Shown in pieces: positions 10,860-62,936 of a DNA stretch of 64,000 nucleotides (position 1 is the stretch's first letter; each line of letters opens with the position of its first letter). The stretch lies in NCBI GenBank assembly GCA_919901565.1, contig CAKKPE010000138.1, forward strand, positions 11,936 to 75,935. The letters run 5' to 3'. The notes beneath the pieces are model-generated. The model saw only the letters and a program-made list of their open reading frames with translations. It searched no databases and was not told the origin of the DNA. The DNA is from a bacterium (lineage in GTDB: Bacteria > CG2-30-53-67). Made by a program: the position numbers and the translations under genes.

Positions 10860-12521
<1,662 letters not shown>

Positions 12522-12635
12522 GTAAAATAAGTAAGAGGGTTCTAAACAGTTCATTGTGGGTAACGTTCTGTTTTGTAAGCCAGATTGAACGCACATTGAA
12601 ACCGTGGAGTCCAGGATTAGGAGCCAAAGCGCTGA

Positions 12636-23998: not shown

Positions 23999-23999
23999 G

Positions 24000-24275: not shown

Positions 24276-24627
24276 CCCCATTTTTTTCATCGATACGTTT
24301 CTTGATGGTTTCATAAACCCCTTCGATATTGTTCAATATTTCCAGATTATTGAACCTTAATATTTCTACTCCTGCTTTGGACAACACTTGTGTTCTGAAT
24401 ATATCTTGCTGTCTCCCATCATCTTCAAAGTGCTGCCCTCCATCTGCCTCGATCCCAAGTTTGTATTCAGCGGGATAGAAGTCCAGTATGTATTCGCCAA
24501 TTGGATACTGCCGCCTGAATTTTACTCCATCCATCTGACGATTTCGTAATATTGTCCAGATTTTCTTTTCCGCATCTGTTTGATTCTTTCGGAGTGACTG
24601 GCATTTATTTATATTTTTCCGTTTCAT
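24232..24627 (-). CDS. DUF559 (Vsr-like endonuclease fold) protein
   Basis: The sequence DAEKKIWTILRNRQMDGVKFRRQYPIGEYILDFY is typical of DUF559. The C-terminus runs into a REP-like repeat. Confidence 0.55.
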   Translation of the reverse strand: MKRKNINKCQSLRKNQTDAEKKIWTILRNRQMDGVKFRRQYPIGEYILDFYPAEYKLGIEADGGQHFEDDGRQQDIFRTQVLSKAGVEILRFNNLEILNNIEGVYETIKKRIDEKNGVDPQIPSPQRGEGT

Positions 24628-24689
24628 GGGTCACCTGCTTTCCCCCCCACCCTTGCCCTCCCCGAAGGGGAGAGGGGACTTGCGAGGAT

Positions 24690-27600
24690 CTAACCTTCCC
24701 GGATTCTGCATACCGGGCTTAACTCACAATAGTCCGGGCACTTTTTTTGCGTTACGGGGAACTTTCCCTGCCGGATCGCCTCCACATATTCCCGGATATA
24801 CCGCATGGAGGCTTCCATGAGTTCTTTGAAGTTCTCGTCGTTCTGGATCTGTGTCTTTTTTTCTCCTGAACGAAGAAGATAAAAAGAGCCGTTCTTCAAT
24901 TCCCGTTGATTGGAGAAGATCGTGCCGGCCCATGCGGCATAGACCGGGAGCTGAAGGCTTTCACCTTTCATGATCTGTGCTGCGCCCGGGGCGCTCTTTC
25001 CGGACTTGTAGTCCACGATGGAGAAGAACGGCTTGTCACCGGACGTGCTGAGGTCGATCCGGTCCACCTTGCCCAGGATCCGGATCTTTCCGGTCTCCGA
25101 ATCCATGGTAAGCGGCTCGGTGCTGGAGATGGGATCGTTCAGCTGGAAGGGTTTCATACCGAAGCAGGCCTCGAAGTGCGACGGCACGTCTCCGGTTTCC
25201 CGGTGTTCCTCGACCTCCTGGTCGATGAACCGGTCAAGGGTCCGGTGGACTTCCTCTTTTCGCACCTCCCATATCTTTCTGTGCCCCGGGATCCCCCTGG
25301 CCTCTGCCCTGTTGAGTTCCTCTTCGGCTGTCCGGTGCATGTTCTTTCTTGCCTGTTCCAGGTTGTCTGCGTTTATGCCCGTGCCGGTCTCCCGGAGATG
25401 CGCGGCATAGAAACGCTGAAGGATCCGGTGATAGAGGCTCCCCAGGTCCCTGGCCTCGACCTCGTCTTCCACCTCTTCCACGGGCTGGACCTTGAGCTCC
25501 CGTTCGCAGAAGTAGGTAAACGGGCATGCCCCGTAGCGCTCGAGCGCTGTGACCGAGAACGGGGCCTCCTGCTCCCGGAGGAGCGCCGCGGCCGCGGCCC
25601 CGAGAAGGCCTGAGTAGGGCCCGTCTCCGCTGTTGCGGTCTTCTGTGACCCGGAGCCCGTGCAGCAGGGGCCAGAGTTTATGCGGCCGTGTCCTCGCCAG
25701 GAGGTTGAAAAGGGAAGGGGCTTCCGGGTTTACGGATGCAGGGCGGCTGAGGTTCAGGAAGGTGTATTCCAGAAGCTCCTTGTCCCTGAAGATATCCTCC
25801 GGATCCGGAAGAGGGTCATTGATGGATACCTCTTTCTTTTCGATTGCGCCCTCTTCGAACAAGCTCCATACGCGGTCCATGAAACGGGAAGAGAGAAGCT
25901 CCCTCCCCTCGGCATCGGTACGGGGATAGGTGAGATACAGGGTCCGGGCCGCTGAGGCGGCGCAGAGGAGAAAGAGGACCTCTTCCTCTTCACGCCGGTG
26001 TGAGGCGAGGGTAATCCACCGGTCCGGGCCAAGGGTTTTGTTCAGAATGATCCGGTCTTTTTCCCTGAAGAGCGGGTCCGGGGGGTGGGCCCGGGGGAAG
26101 ACTTCTTCCACGAGCCCGCCGATAAAGACCACGGGCCTTCTGAGCCCGCGCATGCCGGGTGCGTCCGTGACCAGCACGGCATCTTCGGCCGGCGGGTCGG
26201 GGATGTACTGGGCCTCGGAGAGGGTATGGTTCAGGATGCGCACAAACTCGGAGAGCGGGATATTCATCCCGCTGTGTGAGGCTTCATACTCGCGGACCAT
26301 CTGGGCGAGAAGCTCCCTGAGGGCATCCAGCCCGCGCTGGTCCCGGCGGACCAGACGGAGCTCCGGGCAGGCGGATATCTGTTCCTCCATCCGGAAAGAC
26401 CGGACCATCTCTTCAATGGCCTCCGCGAACCTCCCCGGAGCGGCCTTGCCCGGCAGGGCCTCGATGGTCTTGAACAGGGCCCGAATGATTCTGGCGCAGG
26501 CCTGGTAGTCCCCGATATTTTTTGTACCCTGCTTTATGCGTTCTTCTCTTTTCTCCAGTTCTTCACTCTCCAGGCTTCCCTGCTGAAGCAGTTTCAGGTT
26601 CAGGTCCAGGTACTGTATCCTGGAGGCAAAGCGGCTCTCCCATTCCTCTTTGCCCCCGTGGACCATGGCCTCTCTCGAAAGGATGTCGAAACGTTCCGGA
26701 GGAAGATTCTCCTTGAGCAGAGGCTCGAACCGGATATAGTCTGATCGGATCAGCCGGACCACGGCTTCCCTCCGGTATCCCCCCAATGGGATTTCCAGGA
26801 TTCCCATGACGGTCCGGACCAGGGGGTTGCTTCTCAGGGGAAGGCCGCTCCCCATGCGTATGGGGATGCCGTGGGAGCGAAAGACCTCCGTGACCTTGTC
26901 CTGGTAGTCGCCGAGGCTTCGGAAGACTACGGCGAAATCCTTGAAGGAAAGTCCCTGTCCATATTGGAGCCTGCGGATCTTTCTCGCGATCTCTTCCACC
27001 TCCCGGTAGGCTCCGGGCGAGTTGAGTATCCGGATGGACCCCTTGCACTGGATCCGTGGCGCGATCTCTTCACTGTTGAGAAAATGCTTTCTTAGATGAT
27101 GGAGGGGATCGACCGGATCTTTTTCATCAGCGGAGAGAGGCTTGATTATTGCGTGCGGCCAGACGCTGTCCAGCCGGTCCAGGGTCCGCCGGGTGAACGT
27201 AGAGCCCGGTCCGGTACCATGGACATGTGGCAGGGTGATGAAGATCCCTTCTATGTTCCGGAGCCCGGAGAGTGCGGCAAGAAGACGAAGCTGAATGGGC
27301 GTAAAGTCATAGAATCCTGTGACGAAGATTTTTTGCAGACGGGTCATGGACCCGGGGTTCTGTTCGAGGATTCCCGCTGCGAGCGGGAAGAGATCCTCAC
27401 GGTCCAGCAGGCCCCGGGTCCTGCGCCGGGTTTCGTACTCGTGATAGATTCTTGCCGCCTCGATGATCCTGGGCGAGGCCTGGGCGGAAAGAGATTTTTT
27501 CAGGAACTCCTCTGAAGAGACGCCTCCATCCTTGAGTGTGCGGATGAGGTCGACAACCAGATCCATAAGCCCCCGGGTTTCCCTGACTTCGACAAGGTGC

Positions 27601-27971
27601 TGCAGCGGCATTTCAGCGAGGATCGCCTGGACCATCCACTTGCGGGCAAGGGGGGTGTTCACCCTGCCGGGGAAGGGAGATTCCTGGAAGATCTCCATGC
27701 AGAGGTCGAGAAAGGTCAGTATCCTGAGTCCGATGAACCCGTTGACGCCCTTTTGGGCAAGGATGGCCTCGCGGATGGCTTCGGCCTTGAGGTTGGAGGA
27801 GACCAGGACCATGACCATGTGGCAGCGGTTCTCCGTGACGGCCGGAAGAATTTCATTGAGAATGGTCTGCGTTTTTCCTGAGCCCGGCGGGCCGGTGAGG
27901 ATCTCTACATTGCACATGAGGTCTCTTTGTTCAGGTCCGTTCAAAAGGTTCAAAGAGCTTCTTGTATTCAT
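24690..27971 (-). CDS. addB: AddB-like helicase-nuclease subunit (degenerate helicase plus PD-(D/E)xK nuclease, C-terminal Cys cluster)
   Basis: The P-loop ILTGPPGSGKT, the nuclease motif IVDYKSGK and the C-terminal CPDYCELSPVCR (Fe-S-like Cys) are present. The gene lies upstream of addA on the same strand. Confidence 0.75.
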   Translation of the reverse strand: MNTRSSLNLLNGPEQRDLMCNVEILTGPPGSGKTQTILNEILPAVTENRCHMVMVLVSSNLKAEAIREAILAQKGVNGFIGLRILTFLDLCMEIFQESPFPGRVNTPLARKWMVQAILAEMPLQHLVEVRETRGLMDLVVDLIRTLKDGGVSSEEFLKKSLSAQASPRIIEAARIYHEYETRRRTRGLLDREDLFPLAAGILEQNPGSMTRLQKIFVTGFYDFTPIQLRLLAALSGLRNIEGIFITLPHVHGTGPGSTFTRRTLDRLDSVWPHAIIKPLSADEKDPVDPLHHLRKHFLNSEEIAPRIQCKGSIRILNSPGAYREVEEIARKIRRLQYGQGLSFKDFAVVFRSLGDYQDKVTEVFRSHGIPIRMGSGLPLRSNPLVRTVMGILEIPLGGYRREAVVRLIRSDYIRFEPLLKENLPPERFDILSREAMVHGGKEEWESRFASRIQYLDLNLKLLQQGSLESEELEKREERIKQGTKNIGDYQACARIIRALFKTIEALPGKAAPGRFAEAIEEMVRSFRMEEQISACPELRLVRRDQRGLDALRELLAQMVREYEASHSGMNIPLSEFVRILNHTLSEAQYIPDPPAEDAVLVTDAPGMRGLRRPVVFIGGLVEEVFPRAHPPDPLFREKDRIILNKTLGPDRWITLASHRREEEEVLFLLCAASAARTLYLTYPRTDAEGRELLSSRFMDRVWSLFEEGAIEKKEVSINDPLPDPEDIFRDKELLEYTFLNLSRPASVNPEAPSLFNLLARTRPHKLWPLLHGLRVTEDRNSGDGPYSGLLGAAAAALLREQEAPFSVTALERYGACPFTYFCERELKVQPVEEVEDEVEARDLGSLYHRILQRFYAAHLRETGTGINADNLEQARKNMHRTAEEELNRAEARGIPGHRKIWEVRKEEVHRTLDRFIDQEVEEHRETGDVPSHFEACFGMKPFQLNDPISSTEPLTMDSETGKIRILGKVDRIDLSTSGDKPFFSIVDYKSGKSAPGAAQIMKGESLQLPVYAAWAGTIFSNQRELKNGSFYLLRSGEKKTQIQNDENFKELMEASMRYIREYVEAIRQGKFPVTQKKCPDYCELSPVCRIREG

Positions 27972-40310: not shown

Positions 40311-41162
40311 TCATCGCTCACCCTTTGCGATCCTGCTGATCGTCGAATAATGAAGACCCAGATGGGAGGCGATTTCGGTCTGCCGATACCCATATTGCTC
40401 CACCGCTTTTATGATCAATAGCTGTCTCATCTGTCGGCTCATACGAGTCTCTTCCCGAAAGAGCTTCTCCAACGATGGACGGTGCGCATAACGCTGACTC
40501 CGGGGGATCTCAGGAATATCCTTGCATTTTTTAAGGTAGTCCGACAGCTTCTCGACAAAGCTTTCCTCTCCCAGGAGTGTCTGACCCCGGACCTCGTTCC
40601 ACATTGTCTTCTGTCCAACACCCAGGGATACGAACTGCCGGTACCCCTTTCCCGCTTCGCCTCTTTTCCCGTCAAACTGGCTGAGCACCCAGTCTGTTGT
40701 CAGGCAGGGATGGGGTTTTACCCGTCCTGCTGTGGCAAGGTAACTGGAGAATGCATAGTCCTCGGGCTTCGCAACCATTTTTGCACGAACCGGATTGAGC
40801 ACAACATATCGGCACACTTCAAGAAGGTGGCTGTCCTTCTGGATCAGGATGGCCTTGTACCGGCCCTGAAATATATGGCCTGTTTTTCCATGCCATTTAT
40901 TAAAGCGTTGCGTATAGAGGCCGTTCAGTTGGCGCATGCCGATGGAGAGATTTCCGTCCGGGGTTTCGATGAGGAGATGATAGTGGTTGGTCATGAGGCA
41001 GTAGGCGTGACAAAGCCAATGGTAACGTTTATTCACATGCTGAAGGGCATGGAGAAAGTTGTTGCGGTCCTGATCATCCTTGAATACCGGCTTTTTATCG
41101 TTGCCCCGTGAGGTCACGTGATAGACTGCGCCGGGATATTCTATGCGGAGGGGACGGGCCAT
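40311..41162 (-). CDS. IS200/IS605-like Y1 (HuH) transposase domain fused to a C-terminal HTH; RAYT-like
   Basis: The HuH motif is HYHLLIETP, with QGRYKA downstream. The C-terminal HTH reads YRQTEIASHLGLHYSTISRIAKG. The start is ATG at 41162 (MARPLRIEYPG); the longer ORF to 41450 looks like a spurious extension. Confidence 0.65.
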   Translation of the reverse strand: MARPLRIEYPGAVYHVTSRGNDKKPVFKDDQDRNNFLHALQHVNKRYHWLCHAYCLMTNHYHLLIETPDGNLSIGMRQLNGLYTQRFNKWHGKTGHIFQGRYKAILIQKDSHLLEVCRYVVLNPVRAKMVAKPEDYAFSSYLATAGRVKPHPCLTTDWVLSQFDGKRGEAGKGYRQFVSLGVGQKTMWNEVRGQTLLGEESFVEKLSDYLKKCKDIPEIPRSQRYAHRPSLEKLFREETRMSRQMRQLLIIKAVEQYGYRQTEIASHLGLHYSTISRIAKGER

Positions 41163-41324
41163 AAAAAGACAATAACAAGCGGGAAGGGAAAAGTCAAGCA
41201 GCAAGACCTGACCCTGGGTTTTCGAAGTGAAAAGGGCATTGACGCGGCACAAGAGCCGTTGTATGGTGATCATGAAACCGTTCAACGGTTTAAACAGTTT
41301 AAACGATTTAAATGGTTTTTCCCT

Positions 41325-42092
41325 ATGATCGATATTCACTGTCATATCCTTCCGGGACTGGACGACGGTCCTGAGAATTTTCAGGGGACTCTCGAGATGT
41401 GCCGCATGGCCGTTGACTGTGGGATCACATCTGTTTTTGCGACCCCGCATCTTTACAACAGCCTATTTACGACAAACAGGGCATCGATCCTTGATGTATA
41501 TGAGGAGACCCGGGCGGCCCTTGAATCTGAAGGGGTTCCCTTGAGCCTCTATCTGGGCGCTGATCTGCACCTGGTTCCTGACCTGGGGGAGAAGATATTG
41601 AAAAACCAGGCGCTGACCTTGAATAACAGCCGGTATTTCCTGCTGGAACTTCCGTCTACGATACTCCCGCCGAATTTGGACCAGGTCGTCCAGAAAATGA
41701 TCTCAGACAGTTTTGTGCCGATCATCACCCATCCGGAAAGAAACCCGGTAATCCTGAAACGGGAGGAGATTCTTTTTGACCTGCTGGAGCAGGGGGCCCT
41801 GTGCCAGATCACGGCCATGAGCCTGACCGGGGAATTTGGAAAAGATTGTGAACGTTTTGCCTGCAGGATGCTCGAGGCCGGCGCCGTGCATTTCATTGCC
41901 TCGGATGCCCATTCCACGGGCTGGCGCAAGCCCGATCTTTGCCCTGCGGTCAGCGTGGCCGAACAGATCATTGGAGCAGAGGATGCCCGGCGGTTGGTCA
42001 AGGACTATCCGGAAGCGATCCTTTCCGGGGGAGGCATAGGCCCGGTTTCGGTAAAAAGGCCTCCAAAACCCAAAAGGTTCTGGTTTTTCTGA
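41325..42092 (+). CDS. PHP-family tyrosine-protein phosphatase (CpsB/YwqE-like)
   Basis: The N-terminus MIDIHCHILPGLDDGP is the CpsB signature. Confidence 0.7.
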   Translation: MIDIHCHILPGLDDGPENFQGTLEMCRMAVDCGITSVFATPHLYNSLFTTNRASILDVYEETRAALESEGVPLSLYLGADLHLVPDLGEKILKNQALTLNNSRYFLLELPSTILPPNLDQVVQKMISDSFVPIITHPERNPVILKREEILFDLLEQGALCQITAMSLTGEFGKDCERFACRMLEAGAVHFIASDAHSTGWRKPDLCPAVSVAEQIIGAEDARRLVKDYPEAILSGGGIGPVSVKRPPKPKRFWFF

Positions 42093-51136: not shown

Positions 51137-53221
51137 TCATTTTCCCCCCGATCTTGATAAGATTCTTTTTACTTCCTTGCTGTCGGTGAGCGGTTTCTTG
51201 CAGGTGTAATTCCTGCAGATATAGGCCGCGGGCTTGCCTGCCAGCGGGACTTTGCCTGCAAGGAAGGGGATGCCGTCCTCGAGTCCGGTTTGACCTTCCG
51301 GTGCAAATGCCACGACCTTGTTGGGGGCAAAGGGCTCCCGGACCGCCCGGACCATGGATTGCGTGGCCGATTCATCCCGTGTCCCGGTCACGGCGATCTC
51401 CATTGGATCGCTTACAAGGAAGTCCAGCGCGGCAAGACTCTGGGCATAGGCATTCGGCGAATCAGCCATGGAACCCGATATCCGCTGCAGGGTCTTGATC
51501 GCGGCCTCTTTCAATGGTGCTTCACCGGTGAATTCAAAGAGCCTGAGAAGGTTGAGCATGGCCACGGCATTTCCCGAGGGCTTGGCGCCGTCGTGGAACT
51601 CCTTGCTCCGGGCGAGGAGCGCAGGATCTCCATCCCGGGTGAAGAAGAAGCCTCCCTGCTCCGAATCATAGAAGTGCTCCATCATGGCCCGGTTGAGCTC
51701 AAAGGCCCTCCGGATCCATTCCGGGTTGAAGGTGGCCTGGTAGAGTTCAATCAACCCCTGTACGAAAAAGGCGTAATCATCCAGGTACGCCGGGATCCCG
51801 GCTTCTCCGTCCCGGTAGCACCGGAGCAGGCCCTGCTCTGTGAGGAGGCGCCGGACCACAAAGCGGGCGGCCTTTTCTGCAGCCTCGGCGTAACGGCGGT
51901 CATCCAGGACCTGGGCCGCATAGGCCATGGATCCGATCATCATGCCGTTCCAGGCCGTGAGGACCTTGTCGTCCCTGTGGGGCCGGACCCTTTGTGACCG
52001 GGCCTCCATCAGGAGCCTCCGGCCCTGAGAGAGGATTTCATTCAGTTCATTGAGGGGGATGTCCTGTTCCATGGCAAACGCCTCGGGCTCGATCCATTGA
52101 TGCAGGATGCTCCGGCCCCCTTCAAAATTTCCGTCCCTGGTCACACCGTAAAACAGGTTGAAGATTTTTGCGTTACCGGGCCCCAGGATGGATTCAACCT
52201 GTTCCGGCATCCAGACGTAGAAGGCCCCCTCCTCCCCCTCGCTGTCCGCGTCCTCCGCAGAATAGAATCCGCCCTCGGGATCGGTCATATCCCTGAGTAC
52301 ATAATCGAGGATCTCCCGTGCAGTTTCTTTGTATTCGGCCTTGCCCGTGACCTGAAAGGCTTCAACATAGACAAGGGAGAGAACCGCATTGTCATAGAGC
52401 ATCTTCTCGAAATGCGGGACCAGCCACTGTTCGTCCGTGGAATACCGATGGAAGCCGCCGCCGATCTGATCGTAGATCCCTCCCCGGGCCATGGACTCAA
52501 GGGTTTTCTCAACCATGTTCAGGGCCTCAGGCGAGCCGGTCCGGTGGTGATGACGAAGCAGGAAGGAGAGGGCCATCCCCTGTGGGAACTTGGGCGCAGT
52601 CCCGAAGCCGCCGTGCACCGGGTCAAAGTTTCTTGCGATTCCCATGAAGGCCCGGTCCAGCAGTTCCGGCCCGATCTTTGCCTGCGTTTCAGCCGAAGCT
52701 GAGCCTCGGATCACCTAGGTCAGCCGGTCCCCGCTTTTTACGACATCCTGGGGGTTCTCTTTCCAGAGTTTTACGATCTTGGGGAGCAGGGTCGTCATTC
52801 CGGCCCGTCCCCACTTGTCCCGCGGAGGGAAGTAGGTCCCCCCGAAGAAGGGTTTGAGGTCCGGCGTGAGAAAGACGTTCAGGGGCCACCCCCCGCCCCC
52901 GGTCAGGGCCTGCACCGCTGTCATGTAGATCTTATCCAGGTCAGGGCGCTCCTCCCGGTCCACCTTGATGCAGATGAAATCGCGGTTCAGCAGGGCTGCG
53001 ACCTCCTCGTCTTCAAAGGACTCCTCTTCCATCACGTGGCACCAGTGGCACGTGGAATATCCGATGGAGAGGAAGATCAGCCTGTTCTCTTTGCGTGCAC
53101 GATTTAGCGCCCCGGCGCCCCATGGATACCAGTCTACGGGATTGTAGGCATGCTGAAGCAGGTAAGGGCTCTTCTCCCCGATCAGGTGATTGGGCCGTCG
53201 GTGGTTTGGCTGCTTGGTCAT
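51137..53221 (-). pseudogene. DUF255/YyaL thioredoxin-domain protein interrupted by one in-frame TAG
   Basis: The N-terminal part (53221..52718) has the thioredoxin motif CHWCHVM. TAG at 52715..52717 is followed in the same frame by GTG and VIRGSAS...GGFGTAPKFPQGMALSFLL, the continuation of the same family. Confidence 0.6.
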
Positions 53222-53491: not shown

Positions 53492-55324
53492 TTATGCAGG
53501 TGTGACCGGTATCCTGAACTTAAAGCAGGTCCCTTTGCCGTTCTGCTTTTCCACCCAGATCTTCCCGCCGTGTTTGGCAATGATTTCTCTGGATATCGGG
53601 AGGCCCAGGCCGGTGCCCCCTTTGGCGAATTGAACGTCACTTTCGATCTGCTGGAATTTATCAAAGATCATCTCGTGAAACGCCTCTGGGATCCCTGGTC
53701 CTTGATCGGAGACCGAGATCTCGATCCATTCTGCCGGTTCTGCCGTACCGCCGGCCGGGCCAGGCCCCATGGGTGCTCCGGTCTCTTTGATGCACTCGGC
53801 CTCGATCCTGATCTCACCGCCCGGAGGGGAATAGTTGATGGCGTTCTTGATGAGATTTGAAAAAACCTGCCTCAGACGGTTGGGTTCCGCCAGGATGAGA
53901 GGGATCGTATTTTTTATCGTGGAGCTGATCCGGATATCCTTGATCCTGCATTCCCCCTGATTGATCTGTTCAAATTCCAGGACCATCTCCGAGAGGTTCA
54001 CTTTCTGGAAGCGGTAATGGATCATCCCGCTTTCAAGTTTGGTCAGGTCCAGGTAGTCATTGATCAGGGAGGCCATACGGTCCGCCTCCTTGAGGATGAT
54101 CTCGATGAATTCCCGCTTGGTTTTTTCGTCCTCATCCGGGAAGCGCAGGATCAGGTCCGCATAGGCCTTCACAGAGGTGAGGGGCGTCCGGAGATCATGG
54201 GCCACGGTATCAAGGAAATTTGTCTTTTTCCGGTCCTGTTCCTTTAAAGCCTTGTTGGTCTGTTCCAGCTCTTTGGTTCGTTTTCCCACGGCTTCGGCCA
54301 TGATGTTGAATTTCTGCGAGAGGAGGGCGATCTCATCCTTGCCCCTGGACGTGAGCCGGTATTCATATTCGCCTGATGCGACCCGCTCCGCCCCGCGGCT
54401 TAGATCCTCGATGGGTTTCATGATCCGGTATCCGAGGATCATGGCGATCCAAAACGCGGCCCAGACTATCGCCATCCCGGTCAGGATCATGTTCTGTGAC
54501 ATGGATGAGATGATCGTGTCCAGTCCGAGATAGTTCGGTTCGATCAGGATCGGAAGCCCCAGGTCAGGGATCATGGAGCCGATATTCAGAAGCTGTCCCC
54601 GGTTGTCGATTATCTCCTCAGTGTAAAAAGGATCGTCCCTGTTCACCAACTGTTTTTTATACCATTTGTCCAAATAAGACGGGTACTGATCTGTGCGCTC
54701 TCTTACAGCCGGTTCTTCCAACGTGCCGTAAAGCAGGTTCCCGGACCAGTCCCGGATACAGACACAGGTTTCTTTTAAGGGCCCCCGAAAAACCAGATCG
54801 TCCATGATCTGACGGATCCCCAGGAATATGAACCCTTCTCCTGCAAGGGCCCCTGTTTCATCGTAGAACCTCCTGGATACCCGGAGCAATGAGCGTGTCG
54901 GATCTTTCCTGGGGATGATCCGGAATGCAAGGTTTTTGTCTGACGGGTCCAAATCATTCTCCTCCGGTTCGCTGGCCCAATCGGCTGAGGGATCCCCCGG
55001 GGCAAGGAAGGCGGCGTTCATGATGAATTTTGTCTGTAATATATCGAACATATCTTTTTTTTGTTGAAGTGCATTTGTATCGGGGTTCTTTATGTAAAGG
55101 AGAAAGTCATTAAGAGAGAGATCAGCGAGCTCATCTTTACTATTATTCATGATTTGGGTGAACTGTGTGACAATGAACCTGCTGTACTGCATCGTGGTTT
55201 TTTTCTCGAAGGTACGCATCGGCTCCACTATGGAACTGTATGCGGCCAGGCCGTACAGTAAAGCGGTGAGAATGATCAGGAAGATAAAAGATGTGATGAG
55301 TTTGGCGCGGATCTTCATAGCCAT
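53492..55324 (-). CDS. Sensor histidine kinase (two TM segments, periplasmic domain, HAMP, HisKA, HATPase_c)
   Basis: The H-box reads LDTVAHDLRTPLTSV. The G-boxes read VSDQGPGIP and GTGLGLPISREI. Confidence 0.8.
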   Translation of the reverse strand: MAMKIRAKLITSFIFLIILTALLYGLAAYSSIVEPMRTFEKKTTMQYSRFIVTQFTQIMNNSKDELADLSLNDFLLYIKNPDTNALQQKKDMFDILQTKFIMNAAFLAPGDPSADWASEPEENDLDPSDKNLAFRIIPRKDPTRSLLRVSRRFYDETGALAGEGFIFLGIRQIMDDLVFRGPLKETCVCIRDWSGNLLYGTLEEPAVRERTDQYPSYLDKWYKKQLVNRDDPFYTEEIIDNRGQLLNIGSMIPDLGLPILIEPNYLGLDTIISSMSQNMILTGMAIVWAAFWIAMILGYRIMKPIEDLSRGAERVASGEYEYRLTSRGKDEIALLSQKFNIMAEAVGKRTKELEQTNKALKEQDRKKTNFLDTVAHDLRTPLTSVKAYADLILRFPDEDEKTKREFIEIILKEADRMASLINDYLDLTKLESGMIHYRFQKVNLSEMVLEFEQINQGECRIKDIRISSTIKNTIPLILAEPNRLRQVFSNLIKNAINYSPPGGEIRIEAECIKETGAPMGPGPAGGTAEPAEWIEISVSDQGPGIPEAFHEMIFDKFQQIESDVQFAKGGTGLGLPISREIIAKHGGKIWVEKQNGKGTCFKFRIPVTPA

Positions 55325-55485
55325 GAACCCATGGATGGTTCATGCACTTTCCTGCAGGCCCGCGCAATCAGAAAACCGGGTTGACTCAAGGCGCACTCCT
55401 TCCGGCGGTTTTAAATCCCGGCTCGGCTTTCACTTCTCAGCGTGCTTTTTATTGGCCGTGTTCACACCTGCGAACGGATAGGCCG

Positions 55486-55648
55486 GTCAATAACCCACCG
55501 AAGAGGTGATGACAAAGACCGCTCCCCAGAGGAGAAGAAAGATCCGAAGGGGCGTCACCAGTTGAGAGAGCAGGAAGCTGGCCGCGATGAAACAGCCCCC
55601 CAGAACGGTCCGGATTTCCCGGTCGATTTTTCCCATGTTTTTGACCAT
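55486..55648 (-). CDS. Small DUF2892 (YgaP-like) membrane protein, about 53 aa
   Basis: The translation MVKNMGKIDREIRTVLGGCFIAASFLLSQLVTPLRIFLLLWGAVFVITSSVGY holds if the C/G run near 55617-55622 reads cccgg. It is not in the ORF track because it is shorter than 60 aa. Confidence 0.4.
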
Positions 55649-55788: not shown

Positions 55789-56319
55789 TTATGGTTTCAA
55801 AGCCCTTTCAATGGCCCGGGGGCTGAAGCCTCTGAAAATCGTTCCATCGATATCAATGACCGGGATTCCCGTATATCCATTCGACTTCTCAAGCATTTCC
55901 TGGAGCCCTTTTCTATCTTTTTCTACGTTGACTTCGGTGTACTCGATCCCGTTTGTGACGAAGAAACTCTTCGCCTGTCTGCACGCCGGTCACCAGTCGG
56001 CCATATAGAGGATGACCTTGTGCTGCTTTGCCGCCCCTGCCTGCTGATCATCCTCTTTTGGTGTGCTTTGAAGCGACGGCACCTCCCCGGCCTGTTTTCC
56101 TGGGGCGCTCACCGGGGTTGGGTCGAATCGCACACTCCCCTTATGCTCTACCTTATCGAAATCCACGGCTTTTTCTTTAAACATTTCCGGAATTTTTTTA
56201 GGGTCGTCGGTGAAGTGGGTCTGCCCGGAATCATCCACCCATTGATAGATCGCAGTACTCGAAACCGAGGAGAACAGGCAAAAAAACACTGTAATGACAA
56301 CGAGATCACGAAATTTCAT
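55789..56319 (-). CDS. Candidate selenoprotein: DUF4124 domain fused to a glutaredoxin-like fold with U-P-A-C at the redox site (in-frame TGA at 55990..55992)
   Basis: The N-terminus has a signal peptide and AIYQWVDDSGQTHFTDDP (DUF4124). After the UGA the same frame reads PACRQAKSFFVTNGIEYTEVNVEKDRKGLQEMLEKSNGYTGIPVIDIDGTIFRGFSPRAIERALKP, an NrdH/Grx-like fold. A hairpin GGCGAAGaguuuCUUCGUC begins 14 nt after the UGA. Confidence 0.5.
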
Positions 56320-57740: not shown

Positions 57741-60700
57741 ATGAAGAAAAGACACACTTTGCTTGGTTTGAAAATATTCGTAGTTTACTTGCTGGTTCTC
57801 CTGAACACTGCAATGCCTTCCTGGGCTCTCGACTCGGATGGAGATGGCATTGATGATGGCCTGGACAACTGTCCCAATACCTATAATCCCTCTCAGATAG
57901 ATCTGGATAGTGATGGGATGGGTGATGCATGTGATGACTATACAGACTCTCTCGATCAGTCCGTTTGGATGACTTTCCTTTCATCCGCCACAGCTCCGGA
58001 AAGTTCAATCTCTCCACAGGATATAACTTCCAGGATGAAGGACAGTTTGCTGTTTAATGAAGAATTTATCGTGCAGAAAAATAAGGGGAAATATTATACC
58101 TTGAGTTTTCGCTCCGACCTCGAAGCAAGCGGTCTTTCATCTCTTTATTTGAGTATCTATGTGAATATATACGGAGGGCCGACACAAACGGCGCACCTAT
58201 ATGCCTATAATGCCGACGGTGATTTAGTGAATACGTCCTTGGCATTGCAGTACACGCTTAACCAGGGGTGGAATGATCTGGATGTTGGCCCGTTTCTTCC
58301 GTTAATGCAAGGATTCGGGTTTGTGAAGTTCAGGGTCTACGCCACAGTCAGCAACGCTTTCGCGGTTTCCGAGGCGTACTTTACCGGAGACCTGCTTGTG
58401 CGAGAAGAACCAAACCAGGCCCCTGTGGCCGCCGCAAACGGTCCTTATAGCGGAATTTCCGGCGTTCCCATTTCATTTCGTAGTAACGGCTCGAATGACC
58501 CTGATGCGAATGCCATCACATTTCTTTGGGATTTTGGAGATGGTTCGACATCCACGGAAGCCAATCCGACATATACCTACACCTCAGCCGATACCAACAC
58601 CGTCACCCTTACAGTAACGGACTCGAAAGGGCTGTCAGATACCGACACGACCACCGCCACCATATTCAACAGCTCCTTCGAAACCATAAAACCCACCGAT
58701 GCATTCAACTCCGAAGGCTGGACAAACTCGTATAACGGCTATGACGCGGATATGAATTCTTACAGCTATGTAAAATCTCCCGCTGCAGTACCATCCATAT
58801 CCTTCGGCGGATCTGCCTCCGGTGAATCAACAAACGCATGGCAGAGCAAGCTTAACTATTGGAATGCAGCATGGCTATCCATTACTTTCGAGGCGTCGTC
58901 CGCAGCCAAGAAGGATGACTTGATCGAGATTGTAATCACAGACCGGAACGGAAATATAAAACATACAATGGTTGCCCCAACGCCGCAAGTCTGGCCCAGA
59001 CAAGAACTTGTTAAGAAACTGAATATGTCGGACTGGGGGGATGGGTTCAGTAGCATCGCTAATCTGCGGGTGCGAATCAATGGGTACAGAAAAAAAGGGG
59101 CGGACGGTGCGCAACCCAGGGTTTACGACGTTCATATCGATGGAGACGCTGCACCGGATACGAAGACCTATACGAGAGGCGTGTACAATGTGCTCCCATT
59201 AGACTCAACTGATTTATCAGTTGATTTTTCGCCCGCAGAAATCACGAATGTGGATTCCGATGATGATAAGAGGGTATCCCTATTTGCGCCATCCAATCAA
59301 TACCCAATGCACCTCTTCAAGCAAAAGGCCCCCTCCCACAATGTATCAATTATGTGGAACGGTCAGATCAGTCAGGGAGGAGTTGAGGCTTATGCACAAT
59401 CGTTTACGCCTAATCACTCGGGTGACCTCACTGCAATAAGAATATTTTTTGAAAAAACAGGGCAGCCCGGCGGGTTGTTGAGAGTCCGAGTGAAATCTGA
59501 ATTGGGCGGCGTCATTCTTGCCGAGAGCAATCCTGTAGCAGAAGCTACTCTTGATATAACTGGAAGTTGGAAGGCATTCACTTTTGCTGATCCTGCACCA
59601 TTGGTGGCGGGAAACACATATTATATAGAGATATGGCGGGATCAGGCAGACTTTATCAATTTTCCTGAATTAGTGATAAGGAGTTGTTCAGACATCCAGG
59701 CTTCTGCATGGCCGCGTAGTAATGGAGATTGGCCAGACATTACTACGTCCTCTCCCGACCCCATTTTGTTTGAGGTTGATTTAAATAATACTTTAGAGGT
59801 TAGTACCCTTGGGTGTATTATACCTATCACACCCGAGAGATCCATTTATGGCCTTGATTGGAGGAACATCTACCTGGAAGCTTATAACCGAACCACCTCT
59901 TCCTGGGTTCAGTTGGATACGGCCTTGTATGATGGTTCAACGACCGATGTTGACCTTTCCGGAACGGTGATTTTAGATGATTATTTCGATACGAACAACT
60001 GGATTGCTGTCAGGGTTTATTCGGATACCAACCCGCAGAGGGGATATAGCTTGGGCACGGACATGATAGGGATTGCTTCAGTAAGTGGAGAGATTAAAGT
60101 CGATCCTTTATTTTTGGATTTTGGATATCAGCAGACGGGTAGCGTGTCATCTTTGAACCTTGCAATATCCAATCTCGGCATGCTGGATTTGATGATCGGG
60201 ACAATTTTCTCTCCTTCAGCACCGTTCTCGGTTTCCTCTGATGGCTGCTCAGGCCAGACACTCGCTCCCTTGGCATCTTGCACTGTCACGGTAGCATTTA
60301 ATCCAACGTCTGAGCAGGCATTTTCAGATACCATGATCATCACTTCCAATGATCCCAATCATCCGAACATCACGGTGAATCTTAATGGGGTCGGAATCGT
60401 TCCATTGGCTTCTTTGACAGGAATGGTCACGGACTTATTGTCCGGCTTGCCATTGTCAAACGTTATGGTCGACGTGACCGATTCGCTGACCATGCATTCA
60501 GCAACCACCGATTCCAACGGCACCTACACCATGACCGGCTTGGCCGAAGGTAGTTTCACAGCAACTTTTTCAAGGTCCGGTTATGTGCCGCAGACAGCAA
60601 CCGGCACATTGACCGCGGGGGATACACAAACGTTTGATGTGCAGCTGAGCCCTGTCCAGGCCCTCAGCATTTCCATCACATCTCCGGCGGACGGCTCGGT

Positions 60701-62936
60701 CTTCAACTCATCTCCTGCTGCCGTGACAGGCACAGTGACAGACAATGCATCCGTCACGGTGAACGGTATTCCCGCTGTGCTCTCCAACGGCACCTTTACG
60801 GCTTTGATTGACCTCGCCGAGGGGACGAATACCATCACGGCATCTGCCTCGGACACATACGGCCAGACCGCATCGGACAGCATCACGGTGACCCTTAGCA
60901 TTTCGCAGGCTCCGATAATAAGCAATATTACGGTGACCGGCATCACCGCGGATTCAGCCGTCATCACATGGACCACGGACCAGCCCGCGGACAGCCTGGT
61001 GGACTACGGAGAAACAGTATCCTATGGAACCCAGGCCGCCGATTCAAACCTGGTCACGGCCCACGCCATCACTTTAAGCAGCCTGAATCCTGGTACGGCC
61101 TATCATTTCAGAGTCACATCCAAAAACGCAGAGGGCCTTTCCTCCTCATCCGGGAACAGCACCTTTACCACCCAAGGTGCTTTGTTTAATGCAGTAGCCC
61201 TTGGAGATTACGGCAATGTCACGGTCATGGAAGTGACCGGGAGCTATGATGCCGGTAATCCTGATGGTACCATAAACGATTCTCCGAGGCAGGCCATCGC
61301 AAAGGAGTTCTACAAGAATCATGCGGACTCTTATGACTTTCTTGTGATCTTTTCCAGCTTTGACTTCACCATGCCCGAACCTGCCGCAAAGGCATTCTAT
61401 CTCGAGGTTAAAAATGATACCCAGGGGATCGGAAAACTGCTTTTTAATAACTCCGGCCTGTACGGGAGCTCAAAACTCCAGGGCATCATAGATATGGGCA
61501 ATATCACAGCCATTATTTCGAATCCTGTTGACCCTATGTCCGATGATACCATTTCTACCCTTGCACATGAGCAGATGCACAGATGGGGTGCAAGTATTAA
61601 GTTCAGAGACGCATACGGTAATGATAGCACCGCACTTCTTGGAAAAGACGGGACCCACTGGAGCTTCCTGCTTAACTCCTATGCATCGGTTCTTTACGGC
61701 AATGACTGGATGGATAATGGAGACGGCACCTTCACATCCACAGGCGGCAGTAAATATTACAGTCCTCTTGATTTGTATCTCGCAGGTTTTTATGACAAAA
61801 CACAGGTTCCTCAGATGCTTCTTATTGATAATCCATTGATTGATGCAACAGGATTGCCTGAGGTCGGTGCAACGATTTCAGGGATCGCACGATACATCAC
61901 GATAGATGATATTATAGCGTCGGAAGGAGAGAGAATTCCAAATGTCTCCACATCACAAAAGCCCTTTAAAACAGCTTTTATACTGATAACAAGACCGGGG
62001 ACATTCGACAGCAATGTATTGCCCGGCATTGAGACAATAAGGAGCGCATGGGCAGGAAGATTTACAGAACTTACACATGGCAAGGGTATGATAATGGATA
62101 TTGCTCCATCAATTGCATTAGCTATCGGTTCTCCTTCGGATGGTGAAACGATAGCTGAACCTGAAGTGACAGTCAAAGGCGCTGTTATCAATAACACAGG
62201 GAATGAGACAGGAGTGATAGTAAACGGTATTCCTGCAACAGTATACGGCACGCAGTTCATAGCTGAAGATGTCCCATTGACAGAAGGATCAAATACCATT
62301 ACAGTCACAGCGACAGATACGGCTGGTATTGCGGCAACATCATCAATACCCGTGAACGCGGTGACAACCGGCGATTATATAAAGCTCTATTCCAATATGG
62401 AATCGGGAATATTACCTCTTGAATCAACATTAAAAATTGACGGCTCCTTCAGTATCACAAACTCAGGCTTGAATATAACTGGCCCCGTACAGCCAACAAT
62501 TCTCTTGTCAAGTGCTGATGAATATAGAGTTAAATTCATTGCTGAGGGAATCTATTTCATAACAGCGAGTACAACCGGACCTGATAATAATATCTATCAG
62601 GATACAATCGCGGTAATGATTTTCAATAAGACGCAGCTTGACGAACTTCTTAAAATGAGATGGGAGAGTATGAGGGGGCAGCTTTCAAGTCAGGATGTTG
62701 ATGGCGCGGTAGGATATTTCGAGACAAATTCTCATGAAGTATATAGGAATCAATTTACGGAATTATCATCCATTCTGCCTATCATAGGCAATGATATGGG
62801 ACAAATTCAATTGCTTACAATTAAAGATAATAGAGCCGAGTACGAAATAATTGTCACGAGGAATAGTGTTACATATTCTTTCAATCTCTTGTTTGTTAAA
62901 GATGTAAATGGATTCTGGAAAATAAGGAAATTCTAA
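57741..62936 (+). CDS. Giant secreted multidomain protein (1731 aa): TSP type-3 Ca-binding repeats, PKD, choice-of-anchor-D-like, CarboxypepD_reg-like, Ig-like, FN3, HExxH motif
   Basis: A signal peptide is followed by [36 protein letters not shown] (TSP3). The PKD domain reads [13 protein letters not shown]...[12 protein letters not shown]. The FN3 reads [23 protein letters not shown]. The HExxH motif is [10 protein letters not shown]. The region has lower GC. Confidence 0.8.
   Translation: [1731 protein letters not shown]

What the first reader, a model, noticed from the sequence alone, without database searches (positions are those of the whole stretch)
55789..56319. Candidate selenoprotein: DUF4124-glutaredoxin fusion with UGA at a U-P-A-C active site and a SECIS-like hairpin
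- The annotated ORF 55990..56319 (-) ends ...KVILYMADW-TGA.
- Continuing in the same frame gives PACRQAKSFFVTNGIEYTEVNVEKDRKGLQEMLEKSNGYTGIPVIDIDGTIFRGFSPRAIERALKP-TAA.
- That continuation is collinear with NrdH/YruB-type glutaredoxins (C-P-x-C ... G-x-P-V-I-x-I-x-G-x-x-I-x-G-F).
- The UGA sits exactly where the first Cys of CxxC would be. UxxC is the standard selenoprotein redox motif.
- A 7-bp stem with a 5-nt loop (GGCGAAG-aguuu-CUUCGUC; + coordinates 55957..55975) starts 14 nt 3' of the UGA. The loop contains GU, as in bacterial SECIS elements.
- The N-terminal half is a signal peptide plus DUF4124.
- Grx-like selenoproteins are known in Deltaproteobacteria. I do not know of a DUF4124 fusion carrying Sec; that part is my inference.
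Basis: partly seen in the sequence, partly recalled or inferred. Interest (0 to 1): 0.8.

Follow-up and report, generated by a model that had tools for sequence, protein, structure and literature searches.

The report
Unannotated exported glutaredoxin-type selenoprotein gene
This gene almost certainly encodes a 176-residue secreted redox protein whose active-site residue is selenocysteine, read from a UGA "stop" codon; public databases cut it short at that codon, but it is a new variant of a known kind of selenoprotein, not a new principle.

Summary
Window 55789..56319 (-) is 109 codons, TGA (55990..55992), 66 more in-frame codons, then TAA. The product has a signal peptide, DUF4124, a disordered linker and a glutaredoxin fold with U-P-A-C.

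Evidence that the UGA is read through as Sec:
- The TGA and downstream frame are conserved in all orthologous contigs examined.
- dN/dS downstream of the TGA is 0.05-0.11.
- More than 150 DUF4124-Grx homologs have Cys at the aligned position.
- An 8-bp hairpin with a GUU loop, 22 nt after the UGA, meets the published bacterial SECIS consensus. It is present in Sec forms and absent in all 8 Cys forms tested.
- A second, separate DUF4124-Grx lineage (Syntrophales-like) shows the same TGA/TGC switch between true orthologs, with its own SECIS hairpin. Eleven of its database clusters are truncated exactly before the active site.

GenBank annotates the window gene as a 109-aa "DUF4124 domain-containing protein" (MEK6777692.1).

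Not shown: selA/selB/selD/tRNA-Sec (none in these 64 kb), actual Se incorporation, export, and substrate.

Glutaredoxin selenoproteins (UxxC) are already known. The fusion to an export signal and DUF4124 appears undescribed. Verdict: real and well supported; a new variant of a known kind; moderate interest.

The parts
55789..56319 (-). Full read-through coding sequence: 109 codons + UGA(Sec110) + 66 codons + TAA; 176-aa precursor
   Evidence: frame conserved in L001, L002, L007, L008-L012
56325..56328 (-). Shine-Dalgarno GGAG, 5 nt upstream of the ATG at 56317..56319
   Evidence: read directly; conserved AAGGAGA in the L001/L002 alignment
56251..56319 (-). Predicted Sec-type signal peptide, about aa 1-23 (MKFRD + hydrophobic core + small residues S-T-A before IYQW)
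   Evidence: by inspection. The equivalent N-termini of orthologs end AA|IY or AV|IY. Modelled as an N-terminal helix in a family member. No signal-peptide predictor was available, so this is inference.
56104..56286 (-). DUF4124 (PF13511) match, aa 12-72; conserved core IYQWVDDSGQTHFTDDP
   Evidence: 43 bits, cutoff 22; 25 of 34 aligned fusions hit PF13511; beta-hairpin in the model
56020..56103 (-). Low-complexity Pro/Gln/Ala-rich linker, aa 73-100; fastest-evolving part of the gene
   Evidence: upstream dN/dS 0.24-0.52; indels here in L007; pLDDT below 50 for the equivalent segment of the model
55792..56019 (-). Glutaredoxin-fold domain, aa 101-176, interrupted by the UGA at codon 110
   Evidence: Pfam PF00462; TIGR02196 6.5e-22; PDB 7c10 Grx 1e-10; pLDDT about 97 in the family model
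55990..55992 (-). In-frame UGA = predicted selenocysteine codon 110
   Evidence: TGA in all 6 distinct lineage-1 and L018 sequences, TGC/TGT in 8 Cys forms; aligned column invariant Cys
55981..55992 (-). Redox motif U-P-A-C (aa 110-113), at the N-terminus of helix alpha1 of the Grx fold
   Evidence: position of the first Cys relative to helix alpha1 in the model
55957..55975 (-). SECIS-like hairpin GGCGAAGA-GUU-UCUUCGUC: 8 bp, 3-nt loop starting with G-U, loop 22 nt after the UGA, -8.3 kcal/mol
   Evidence: Both changes in L002 keep pairing (A-U to G-U, G-U to G-C) although they alter amino acids. Same register in L007.

Best explanation
The gene encodes a selenoprotein. When the ribosome reaches UGA110, SelB carrying Sec-tRNA(Sec) binds the hairpin that begins 14 nt downstream (loop GUU 22 nt from the UGA). 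It inserts selenocysteine instead of allowing termination, giving a 176-aa precursor. The N-terminal signal peptide directs export across the inner membrane. The mature protein is a short DUF4124 beta-hairpin module joined by a flexible Pro/Gln-rich tether to a glutaredoxin-fold domain. That domain's redox centre is U-P-A-C, with Sec in the exposed, attacking first position. It most likely acts as an envelope (periplasmic) thiol-disulfide/selenosulfide oxidoreductase. Most relatives do the same job with Cys.

Shown here: the conserved UGA, a translated and selected downstream frame, Cys at the aligned site in homologs, a hairpin specific to Sec forms, and the domain architecture.

Inferred: SelB dependence, actual Se insertion, export, substrate, and physiological role.
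For: 1. The TGA plus an intact downstream frame is present in every ortholog examined: L001, L002, L007 (about 64% identity in the Grx part) and L008-L012. The 109-aa truncated call is recorded on 77 contigs.
2. Purifying selection downstream of the TGA: dN/dS 0.05-0.11, against 0.24-0.52 upstream. Differences fall mainly at third codon positions, e.g. [1,3,16]. The excess of synonymous change has p = 4e-8, 4e-5 and 7e-7.
3. No in-frame start codon for 31 codons after the TGA.
4. The aligned residue is Cys in 30 of 30 Cys-form fusions of alignment A3 and in 118 of 118 further members, as W-C-x-x-C. The family has 1,092 hits, nearly all PF00462 + PF13511.
5. bSECIS consensus (PMC13188914, read): 5 of 6 distinct Sec sequences pass all four criteria. 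None of 8 Cys forms pass, none of 11 genuine TGA stops in the window pass, and 7.8% of background Cys codons pass.
6. An independent second lineage. L018, L087-L091 (TGA) and L019 (TGC) are orthologs in the same neighbourhood. In L019 two synonymous changes break a stem pair (GCG to GCC) and remove the loop G (GAG to GAA). Eleven database clusters end exactly at ...YTTPT, before the C of CPYC.
7. The two lineages build nearly the same hairpin from different codons (K-S-F-F-V and K-E-F-L-S), offset by one inserted A-U pair.
8. TGA is an ordinary stop in 11 of 37 long ORFs of the window, so the organism uses the standard code.
9. The AlphaFold model of a family member shows a signal helix, a beta-hairpin, a disordered linker and a confident Grx fold.
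10. selB-selC loci are reported in a groundwater Nitrospirae lineage (PMC8124441). The window's closest relatives are groundwater Nitrospirota MAGs.
Against: - No selA, selB, selD or tRNA-Sec lies in the 64-kb window, so the organism's ability to make Sec is unverified.
- The hairpin is short (-8.3 kcal/mol) and the local fold is not significantly more stable than shuffles (z = -1.37).
- L007's upper stem alone reaches only -6.6 kcal/mol, short of the -7.5 threshold. Its full local fold is -21.6 kcal/mol.
- The Sec sequences represent only about three independent lineages. Counted that way, the Sec/Cys hairpin contrast is p = 0.055.
- Reduced synonymous change across the SECIS stretch is seen in lineage 2 (5/72 against 89/324) but not in lineage 1.
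- Rfam has no matching SECIS model.
- There is no experimental evidence of any kind.
Confidence: 0.87

Rival explanations
1. The UGA is recoded through the hairpin, but the residue inserted is cysteine, or a Sec/Cys mixture. It would be delivered by a tRNA-Sec-like tRNA-Cys(UCA) ('selC*') and a SelB paralog, as proposed for some anaerobes.
For: Mukai et al. (PMC5389517) found selC* tRNA-Cys genes in Thermodesulfovibrio, Smithella and contigs probably from Nitrospirae or Deltaproteobacteria. They found a second selB next to them in Syntrophobacterales and Desulfobacterales, and showed opal suppression with Cys in an E. coli reporter. These are the taxa of the two lineages found here. All the sequence evidence here (conserved UGA, hairpin, Cys in homologs) fits Cys insertion as well as Sec insertion.
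Against: In that paper the genomes carrying selC* also had the complete Sec apparatus, so Sec insertion remains the default. No selC*, selB* or cysS* was seen in the window. Keeping a costly UGA+SECIS only to insert Cys, when one TGA-to-TGC change does the same as in L019, is hard to explain by selection.
Confidence: 0.05
2. The UGA is a true stop. The gene product is a 109-aa DUF4124 protein and the downstream Grx-like frame is a decaying remnant or pseudogene. Alternatively the TGA is a sequencing or assembly error.
For: GenBank and every gene caller annotate it this way. Stand-alone DUF4124 proteins exist, e.g. P0003. TGA is a normal stop elsewhere in the window.
Against: - The same TGA occurs in independent assemblies from many samples.
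- dN/dS downstream is 0.05-0.11, lower than in the annotated part.
- The frame stays open for exactly the length of a Grx domain and ends at a conserved stop, after which sequence similarity is lost.
- A second lineage shows the same pattern in at least 11 clusters.
Confidence: 0.03
3. The Grx part is made as a separate polypeptide by re-initiation, or by SelB-independent near-cognate read-through (for example Trp at UGA). The hairpin would then be a by-product of the conserved A-K-x-F-[FL] peptide motif.
For: The 5' arm of the hairpin is encoded by Ala-Lys, which is conserved in nearly all family members, so some complementarity could arise from protein constraint. The local fold energy is not exceptional.
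Against: - There is no in-frame start codon until codon 142. A product from there lacks the active site.
- Cys forms with the same or similar peptide have no such hairpin: L019 AKEFLS (identical to L018), L016 AKAFL, L020 AKSFL.
- The differences between L018 and L019 in the stem and loop are synonymous.
- Trp or another residue at the catalytic position of a CxxC motif that is invariant Cys in more than 150 homologs would give an inactive protein, yet the domain is under strong purifying selection.
Confidence: 0.03

Closest known systems
Glutaredoxin selenoproteins (Pfam PF00462, UxxC), e.g. Clostridium oremlandii Grx; listed as an experimentally verified prokaryotic selenoprotein family in PMC13188914 and PMC9312934
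   Same: Same Pfam domain, with Sec at the first position of the UxxC motif at the start of helix alpha1 and a SECIS hairpin directly after the UGA in the coding region. The C. oremlandii Grx structures 4tr0 and 4tr1 are among the sequence-detectable PDB relatives.
   Different: As I recall them, the described members are small stand-alone cytoplasmic proteins of about 80-90 aa that use glutathione. This one has a signal peptide, DUF4124 and a long linker in front, and would work outside the cytoplasm, where glutathione and NADPH-linked reductases are not normally available. I could not fetch the reference sequence WP_010943784.1 to compare its architecture.
Cys-form DUF4124-glutaredoxin fusion proteins, annotated 'glutaredoxin family protein' in Syntrophales, Smithellaceae, Smithella and Syntrophus MAGs
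   Same: Same architecture and length (median 170 aa), same W-[C/U]-x-x-C motif, 27-36% identity over the full length and up to 49% in the Grx domain. This is the family the window protein belongs to.
   Different: They carry Cys (TGC/TGT) at the site and lack the downstream hairpin. None is functionally characterised.
Uxx-star family glutaredoxin-like (seleno)proteins (NCBIfam NF041212, NF041114, NF041211, NF047338; 'Distant Grx-like protein 1' in PMC13188914)
   Same: YruB-like Grx fold containing selenocysteine. The Grx domain of the second lineage (L018) scores above the NF041212 subfamily cutoff (74.6 bits, cutoff 66).
   Different: The window protein scores 45.7, below the cutoff of 66, and below the cutoffs of all the specific Uxx-star models. 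From the family name I take the defining feature to be a Sec three residues before the C-terminal stop, and the review lists a UxxT motif with 2 Sec. The window protein ends ...ALKP-TAA with one Sec in UxxC, and it has the N-terminal export/DUF4124 part.
Exported thioredoxin-fold selenoproteins: thiol:disulfide interchange protein (PF13098), DsbG-like and DsbA-like selenoproteins (UxxC), predicted families in PMC13188914
   Same: Thioredoxin-superfamily fold and a UxxC motif. An extracytoplasmic disulfide oxidoreductase role is the one I propose here.
   Different: A different branch of the superfamily (Dsb/Trx-like, larger domains). There is no detectable sequence relationship beyond the fold and no DUF4124.
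TfpC of Neisseria gonorrhoeae, the only functionally studied DUF4124 protein (bioRxiv 10.1101/2020.09.26.314724)
   Same: N-terminal cleavable signal, DUF4124 region, an extended proline-rich segment, then a C-terminal functional domain predicted to be periplasmic. The overall tethered layout is the same.
   Different: TfpC's C-terminal domain is a helical coiled coil needed for type IV pilus stability. It is not a redox domain and contains no Sec.

Membership tests
Bacterial selenoprotein gene (computational criteria of Zhang & Gladyshev as described in PMC1976440) | In-frame TGA conserved in at least two different sequences | tested here: met
   TGA in window, L001, L002, L007 and L008 (5 distinct sequences) and in the second lineage L018, L087, L089, L090
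Bacterial selenoprotein gene (computational criteria of Zhang & Gladyshev as described in PMC1976440) | At least two Cys-containing homologs with Cys aligned to the TGA | tested here: met
   Cys in 30 of 30 Cys-form sequences of A3 and in 118 of 118 further members; TGC/TGT confirmed at DNA level in 8 loci
Bacterial selenoprotein gene (computational criteria of Zhang & Gladyshev as described in PMC1976440) | Genome encodes selA, selB, selD and tRNA-Sec | not testable with these tools
   None in the 64-kb window and the rest of the MAG cannot be fetched. Indirect only: selB-selC are reported in groundwater Nitrospirae (PMC8124441).
Bacterial selenoprotein gene (computational criteria of Zhang & Gladyshev as described in PMC1976440) | Selenium actually incorporated (75Se labelling or mass spectrometry) | not testable with these tools
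   Experimental
Bacterial SECIS consensus (PMC13188914 Fig. 2 legend) | Apical loop of 3-9 nt on an upper stem of 4-16 bp | tested here: met
   3-nt loop GUU on 8 bp (or 5-nt AGUUU on 7 bp)
Bacterial SECIS consensus (PMC13188914 Fig. 2 legend) | G in one of the first two loop positions, usually followed by G or U | tested here: met
   The loop begins G-U in the window, L001, L002, L008 and all lineage-2 Sec forms. L007's loop is AGGUA. The Cys ortholog L019 has A at that position.
Bacterial SECIS consensus (PMC13188914 Fig. 2 legend) | 16-37 nt between the UGA and the apical loop | tested here: met
   22 nt in the window, 21 in L007, 23 in lineage 2
Bacterial SECIS consensus (PMC13188914 Fig. 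2 legend) | Minimum free energy of -7.5 kcal/mol or lower | tested here: met
   -8.3 kcal/mol for the hairpin alone in the window and -10.7 in L002. L007's upper stem alone gives -6.6, but its local fold is -21.6.
Glutaredoxin selenoprotein family (PF00462, UxxC) | Glutaredoxin Pfam domain above the gathering score | tested here: met
   51.5 bits, cutoff 22.9
Glutaredoxin selenoprotein family (PF00462, UxxC) | Sec at the first position of the CxxC-type motif | tested here: met
   W-U-P-A-C aligned to W-C-P-x-C
Glutaredoxin selenoprotein family (PF00462, UxxC) | Small stand-alone cytoplasmic protein (my recollection of the described members, not a curated criterion) | tested here: not met
   100 extra N-terminal residues: signal peptide, DUF4124 and linker
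Glutaredoxin selenoprotein family (PF00462, UxxC) | Glutathione-dependent disulfide reductase activity | not testable with these tools
   Biochemical
YruB-family glutaredoxin-like protein (TIGR02196) | Score at or above the curated cutoff of 88.55 bits | tested here: not met
   77.8 bits (best NCBIfam hit, E 6.5e-22); L007 81.6, L018 83.8
NrdH-redoxin (TIGR02194) | Score at or above the curated cutoff of 85.75 bits | tested here: not met
   40.1 bits
Uxx-star glutaredoxin-like (seleno)protein (NF041212 subfamily) | Score at or above the curated cutoff of 66 bits | tested here: not met
   45.7 bits for the window protein and 48.1 for L007. The second lineage, L018, does pass with 74.6.
Uxx-star glutaredoxin-like (seleno)protein (NF041212 subfamily) | Sec three residues before the C-terminal stop (as I infer from the family name) | tested here: not met
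   The product ends ...RALKP-TAA with no TGA near the end
DUF4124 (PF13511) | Score above the gathering score of 22 bits | tested here: met
   43 bits, aa 12-72; the truncated product is annotated as DUF4124 in GenBank

The most novel reading that the evidence does not exclude
The UGA acts as a selenium-sensing switch between two functional envelope proteins made from one gene. With selenium, the product is a tethered Sec-glutaredoxin. Without it, the product is a stand-alone DUF4124 protein of the kind that exists as a separate gene in many bacteria. The DUF4124-Grx family has toggled between Cys and Sec repeatedly, which would make it a natural system for asking what Sec buys an extracytoplasmic oxidoreductase. 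A related possibility is Sec/Cys ambiguity at this codon through selC*-type tRNA-Cys.
Probability: 0.12. Interest if true: 0.65.

Novelty: new variant of a known kind. Interest (0 to 1): 0.45.

Why it matters
- It adds an exported, DUF4124-tethered form to the known glutaredoxin selenoproteins. Few bacterial selenoproteins are thought to work outside the cytoplasm.
- It shows at least two separate Cys/Sec switches inside one otherwise Cys-using family. One of them is a clean ortholog pair (L018 and L019) in which the SECIS has decayed through synonymous changes only. That pair is good material for studying how Sec is gained or lost.
- There is a systematic annotation error. The window gene (MEK6777692.1), its Nitrospirota orthologs (OIP65616.1, PIS38491.1, PIV83005.1, PIW85102.1) and at least 11 clusters of the second lineage are deposited as 90-109-aa 'DUF4124' or 'hypothetical' proteins. 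Their redox domain is missing or is called as a 45-49-aa fragment.
- It does not change the understanding of how Sec is decoded.

Tried and rejected
- P0003 (176 aa, the same length as the read-through product) looked like a full-length Cys homolog. It is a DUF4124-only protein with an unrelated helical C-terminus.
- The genome-contig scan returned only an ordinary 83-aa CPYC glutaredoxin from a gammaproteobacterial MAG (L006). No close relative was found among 185,579 species genomes.
- I suspected that about ten 62-63-aa hits beginning 'MAKEFF...', just after the CxxC position, were further UGA-truncated selenoproteins. The DNA of two (L085, L086) shows normal CPYC glutaredoxins with mis-called start sites, so the idea is rejected.
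- Rfam found nothing at gathering thresholds for the whole window and only chance-level hits in a permissive scan of the gene. Bacterial SECIS elements are not modelled there, so this is uninformative.
- A scan of the window for other TGA-interrupted genes, which would have shown Sec use by this organism, found no convincing case other than this gene. Pfam annotation of about 45 ORFs found no sel genes.
- The in-frame TAG in the neighbouring DsbH-like gene was considered as a possible pyrrolysine or recoding site. It aligns with Gln (CAG) in the intact L007 ortholog, so a simple nonsense change or sequencing error is the economical reading.
- Genomic context as a clue to function gave little. 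The window lineage keeps Grx - YgaP-like TM - histidine kinase - DsbH-like protein. The second lineage sits between an OYE-type oxidoreductase and RidA. No shared context means no common inference.
- Reduced synonymous change across the SECIS stretch is a trend in lineage 2 only. No single pair is significant and pooled pairs are not independent.
- The structure was predicted for a Cys-form relative (P0214), not for the window protein itself, for the same reason.
Full report
**What is in the sequence**

On the minus strand, an ATG at 56317..56319 is preceded by a GGAG Shine-Dalgarno 5 nt upstream. It opens a frame of 109 codons that ends ...KVILYMADW-TGA. The listed ORF end includes the stop, so the TGA is 55990..55992. 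The same frame continues for 66 codons (PACRQAKS...RALKP) to a TAA at 55789..55791. With the UGA read as Cys, Pfam finds DUF4124 (aa 12-72, 43 bits, cutoff 22) and Glutaredoxin (aa 102-160, 51.5 bits, cutoff 22.9). NCBIfam's best match is the YruB-type glutaredoxin-like model, and the nearest solved structure by sequence is a small CPHC glutaredoxin, 7c10. RNAfold draws it as 8 bp with a GUU loop, starting 14 nt after the UGA.

**Is the downstream frame translated?**

The gene callers behind every database entry stop at the UGA. The two closest database proteins are 109 aa. GenBank lists the window's own gene as MEK6777692.1, 'DUF4124 domain-containing protein', 109 aa. Orthologs in four groundwater 'Nitrospirae bacterium' MAGs are 109-aa hypothetical proteins recorded on 77 contigs.

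Reading the DNA of the orthologous contigs gives a different picture. L001, L002, L008-L012 and the more distant L007 (about 64% identical in the Grx part) all keep TGA at the same codon. All keep the full downstream frame ending at the same place, and similarity is lost right after the final stop.

| Measure | Result |
|---|---|
| dN/dS downstream of the TGA (Nei-Gojobori) | 0.05-0.11 |
| dN/dS in the annotated upstream part | 0.24-0.52 |
| Downstream differences by codon position (window vs L001) | [1, 3, 16] |
| Excess of synonymous change over neutral expectation | p = 4e-8, 4e-5, 7e-7 |

There is no in-frame ATG, GTG or TTG for 31 codons after the TGA. The first, at codon 142, would give a fragment without strand beta1, the active site or helix alpha1. 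A pseudogene, a sequencing error or a separately initiated gene can therefore be set aside.

**What do homologs have at that position?**

An exhaustive HMMER search with the 66-aa C-terminal part found 829 relatives. Many of them are 150-230-aa proteins with an N-terminal signal sequence, the DUF4124 'IYxWxDxxG' core, a linker and a C-terminal Grx domain. Metagenome contigs added more at the DNA level.

- In a 34-sequence alignment, all have the Grx domain, 25 have a Pfam-significant DUF4124, and the column aligned to the UGA is invariant Cys.
- A profile search of the 5.8-billion-protein set returned 1,092 members. Nearly all of the best 120 are PF00462 + PF13511, with median length 170 aa. 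Their sources call them 'glutaredoxin family protein' from Syntrophales, Smithellaceae, Smithella and Syntrophus MAGs. All 118 new ones have W-C-x-x-C.

The window protein has W-U-P-A-C. This is the classical Sec/Cys homolog pairing used to define selenoproteins (PMC1976440).

**The SECIS element**

The published bacterial consensus (PMC13188914, Fig. 2 legend) has four requirements:
- a 3-9-nt apical loop on a 4-16-bp stem;
- a G in the first two loop positions, usually followed by G or U;
- 16-37 nt between the UGA and the loop;
- an MFE of -7.5 kcal/mol or lower.

The window hairpin has 8 bp, a GUU loop, a 22-nt spacing and -8.3 kcal/mol, so it meets all four. Taken alone this is weak evidence. 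The 66-nt fold is not unusual (z = -1.37), and 7.8% of Cys codons in the window's genes are followed by something that passes (1.2% with a stem of 7 bp or more). The comparison is what counts:

| Set | Pass all four criteria |
|---|---|
| Distinct Sec-form sequences | 5 of 6 |
| Cys-form fusions | 0 of 8 |
| Genuine TGA stops in the window | 0 of 11 |

The sixth Sec form, L007, has a 6-bp stem in the same register, an AGGUA loop and a strong lower stem. Its upper stem alone gives -6.6 kcal/mol and its local fold -21.6. In L002 two nucleotide changes in the stem alter amino acids (K to R, V to A) yet both preserve pairing (A-U to G-U, G-U to G-C).

**A second, independent lineage**

Among the metagenome hits, L018 encodes a different DUF4124-Grx (about 30% identical overall to the window protein) with ...VVIYTTPT-TGA-PYCKYAKEFLS.... 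L019 encodes its close relative with TGC at that codon. Both sit between an OYE-type FMN/FAD oxidoreductase and RidA, so they are true orthologs. dN/dS downstream is 0.13.

L018 has the hairpin GCGAAAGA-GUU-UCUUUCGC, with the loop 23 nt after the UGA. In L019 the peptide A-K-E-F-L-S is identical, but a synonymous GCG to GCC breaks a stem pair and a synonymous GAG to GAA replaces the loop G. This resembles the pattern reported for Sec and Cys variants of [NiFe] hydrogenases, where loss of the loop guanine in Cys types often involves synonymous substitutions (PMC13582414).

A database search with this lineage found 7 full-length Cys clusters and 11 clusters of 90-91-aa 'DUF4124' proteins. Every one of those 11 ends at ...YTTPT, one residue before the Cys of CPYC. 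The DNA of three more (L087/L088, L089, L090/L091; 68-84% identical to L018 in the N-terminal part) confirms the TGA, the 68-70-codon frame and an identical hairpin. Third-position differences among the lineage-2 Sec forms are rarer in the SECIS stretch (5/72) than in the rest of the frame (89/324). Between Sec and Cys forms they are not (18/48 against 72/216). This is suggestive only, because the pairs are not independent, and lineage 1 shows no such effect.

In a neighbour-joining tree of the Grx domains the two Sec groups fall in separate clades among Cys forms. The two lineages reach almost the same hairpin from different codons (K-S-F-F-V and K-E-F-L-S), offset by one inserted A-U pair. 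That argues for selection on the RNA and not on the peptide.

**Other readings**

TGA ends 11 of 37 long ORFs in the window, so the organism uses the standard code. One documented alternative cannot be excluded. Some anaerobes, including Thermodesulfovibrio, Smithella and contigs probably from Nitrospirae or Deltaproteobacteria, carry tRNA-Sec-like tRNA-Cys genes ('selC*'). Some of these have a UCA anticodon and a neighbouring selB paralog, and can decode UGA as Cys (PMC5389517). I rate this low, because the selC*-carrying genomes in that paper also had the full Sec apparatus, and because a single TGA-to-TGC change would reach the same result more cheaply.

**What could not be shown**

The window contains no tRNA, no Rfam hit and no selA, selB or selD among about 45 annotated ORFs. 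I found no other TGA-interrupted gene in it. The only support is indirect. The nearest relatives are unclassified Nitrospirota from groundwater, and selB-selC loci have been described in a groundwater Nitrospirae lineage (PMC8124441).

**How it probably works**

An AlphaFold model of a full-length Cys-form member (P0214) shows four parts:
- an N-terminal hydrophobic helix (the signal peptide);
- a short beta-hairpin formed by the DUF4124 core (pLDDT about 75-80);
- a disordered stretch of roughly 35 residues (pLDDT below 50);
- a very confident Grx fold (pLDDT about 97), with the first active-site Cys at the N-terminus of helix alpha1.

The window protein has the same layout. Its N-terminus (MKFRD, a hydrophobic core, then small residues before IYQW) looks like a Sec-type signal peptide. 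This is by inspection, as no predictor was available. The only studied DUF4124 protein, TfpC of Neisseria, is likewise a signal peptide plus DUF4124 plus a proline-rich extension carrying a periplasmic domain.

I therefore propose an exported, tethered thiol-disulfide/selenosulfide oxidoreductase in which Sec replaces the attacking Cys. Export, substrate and reductant are inferences. In the window lineage the gene is followed, in all contigs long enough to show it, by a YgaP-like small membrane protein (absent in L007), a HAMP/HisKA sensor kinase and a DsbH-type thioredoxin-domain protein. That hints at an envelope redox function, but the second lineage does not share the neighbourhood.

**Comparison with what is known, and novelty**

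Glutaredoxin (PF00462, UxxC) is already on the list of experimentally verified prokaryotic selenoprotein families (PMC13188914 and PMC9312934). Several Grx-like selenoprotein families have curated NCBIfam models. By domain and motif this protein belongs with them. It fails the curated cutoffs of every specific model:

| NCBIfam model | Window protein (bits) | Cutoff (bits) |
|---|---|---|
| YruB-type Grx (TIGR02196) | 77.8 | 88.55 |
| Uxx-star subfamily (NF041212) | 45.7 | 66 |
| NrdH (TIGR02194) | 40.1 | 85.75 |

The protein also differs in having an export signal and DUF4124. No paper in the library holds both 'selenoprotein' and 'DUF4124', and all database entries are truncated. I class it as a new variant of a known kind. 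It is a sound, useful annotation correction and a good evolutionary case, but not a surprise in mechanism.

Noticed in passing
window 51137..53221 (-), stop at 52715..52717: A DUF255/Thioredox_DsbH protein is split into 168-aa and 525-aa ORFs by a single in-frame TAG. In the intact 744-aa ortholog on L007 (68% identity over 550 aa) the aligned residue is Gln (CAG). This is probably a recent nonsense mutation (pseudogene) or a sequencing error, not a recoding site.
   Followed up: partly
window 53492..55648 (-); L001, L002, L007: Conserved gene order downstream of the selenoprotein gene: a 53-aa YgaP-like transmembrane protein (55487..55648; not called in L007), then a HAMP/HisKA/HATPase sensor kinase (53492..55324), then the DsbH-like protein. 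This may be a functionally linked envelope-redox module.
   Followed up: partly
L018, L019, L087-L091 (not in the window): A second DUF4124-Grx lineage (Syntrophales/Deltaproteobacteria-like) has roughly as many Sec as Cys members. At least 11 database clusters of it are mis-annotated as 90-91-aa DUF4124 or hypothetical proteins, each with a separate 47-49-aa 'Glutaredoxin (weak)' fragment.
   Followed up: yes
L085:1456-1692, L086:72-308: Small CPYC glutaredoxins are represented in the protein collection by 62-63-aa products that start at the Met just after the CxxC motif. These are start-site mis-calls that remove the active site, not UGA truncations.
   Followed up: yes
window 40311..41450 (-): A 379-aa ORF with an IS200-like Y1 transposase domain plus a C-terminal HTH_23, the only obvious mobile-element gene in the window. 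It lies between the futalosine-pathway genes and the GcvH/Lpd genes.
   Followed up: no
window 20498..27971 (-): An AddA/AddB-like helicase-nuclease pair (1166 aa and 1093 aa, both with PD-(D/E)XK domains), with a 131-aa DUF559 endonuclease-like ORF (24232..24627) between them.
   Followed up: no
window 10872..12596: Two long overlapping ORFs on opposite strands (549 aa on +, 561 aa on -). The minus-strand one has no Pfam match at 1e-5 and the plus-strand one was not scanned. Which is the real gene was not resolved.
   Followed up: no
window 57741..62936 (+): A 1731-aa protein with PKD, Ig-like, fibronectin-III, CarboxypepD_reg and glucodextranase-B domains; probably a large cell-surface protein.
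   Followed up: no
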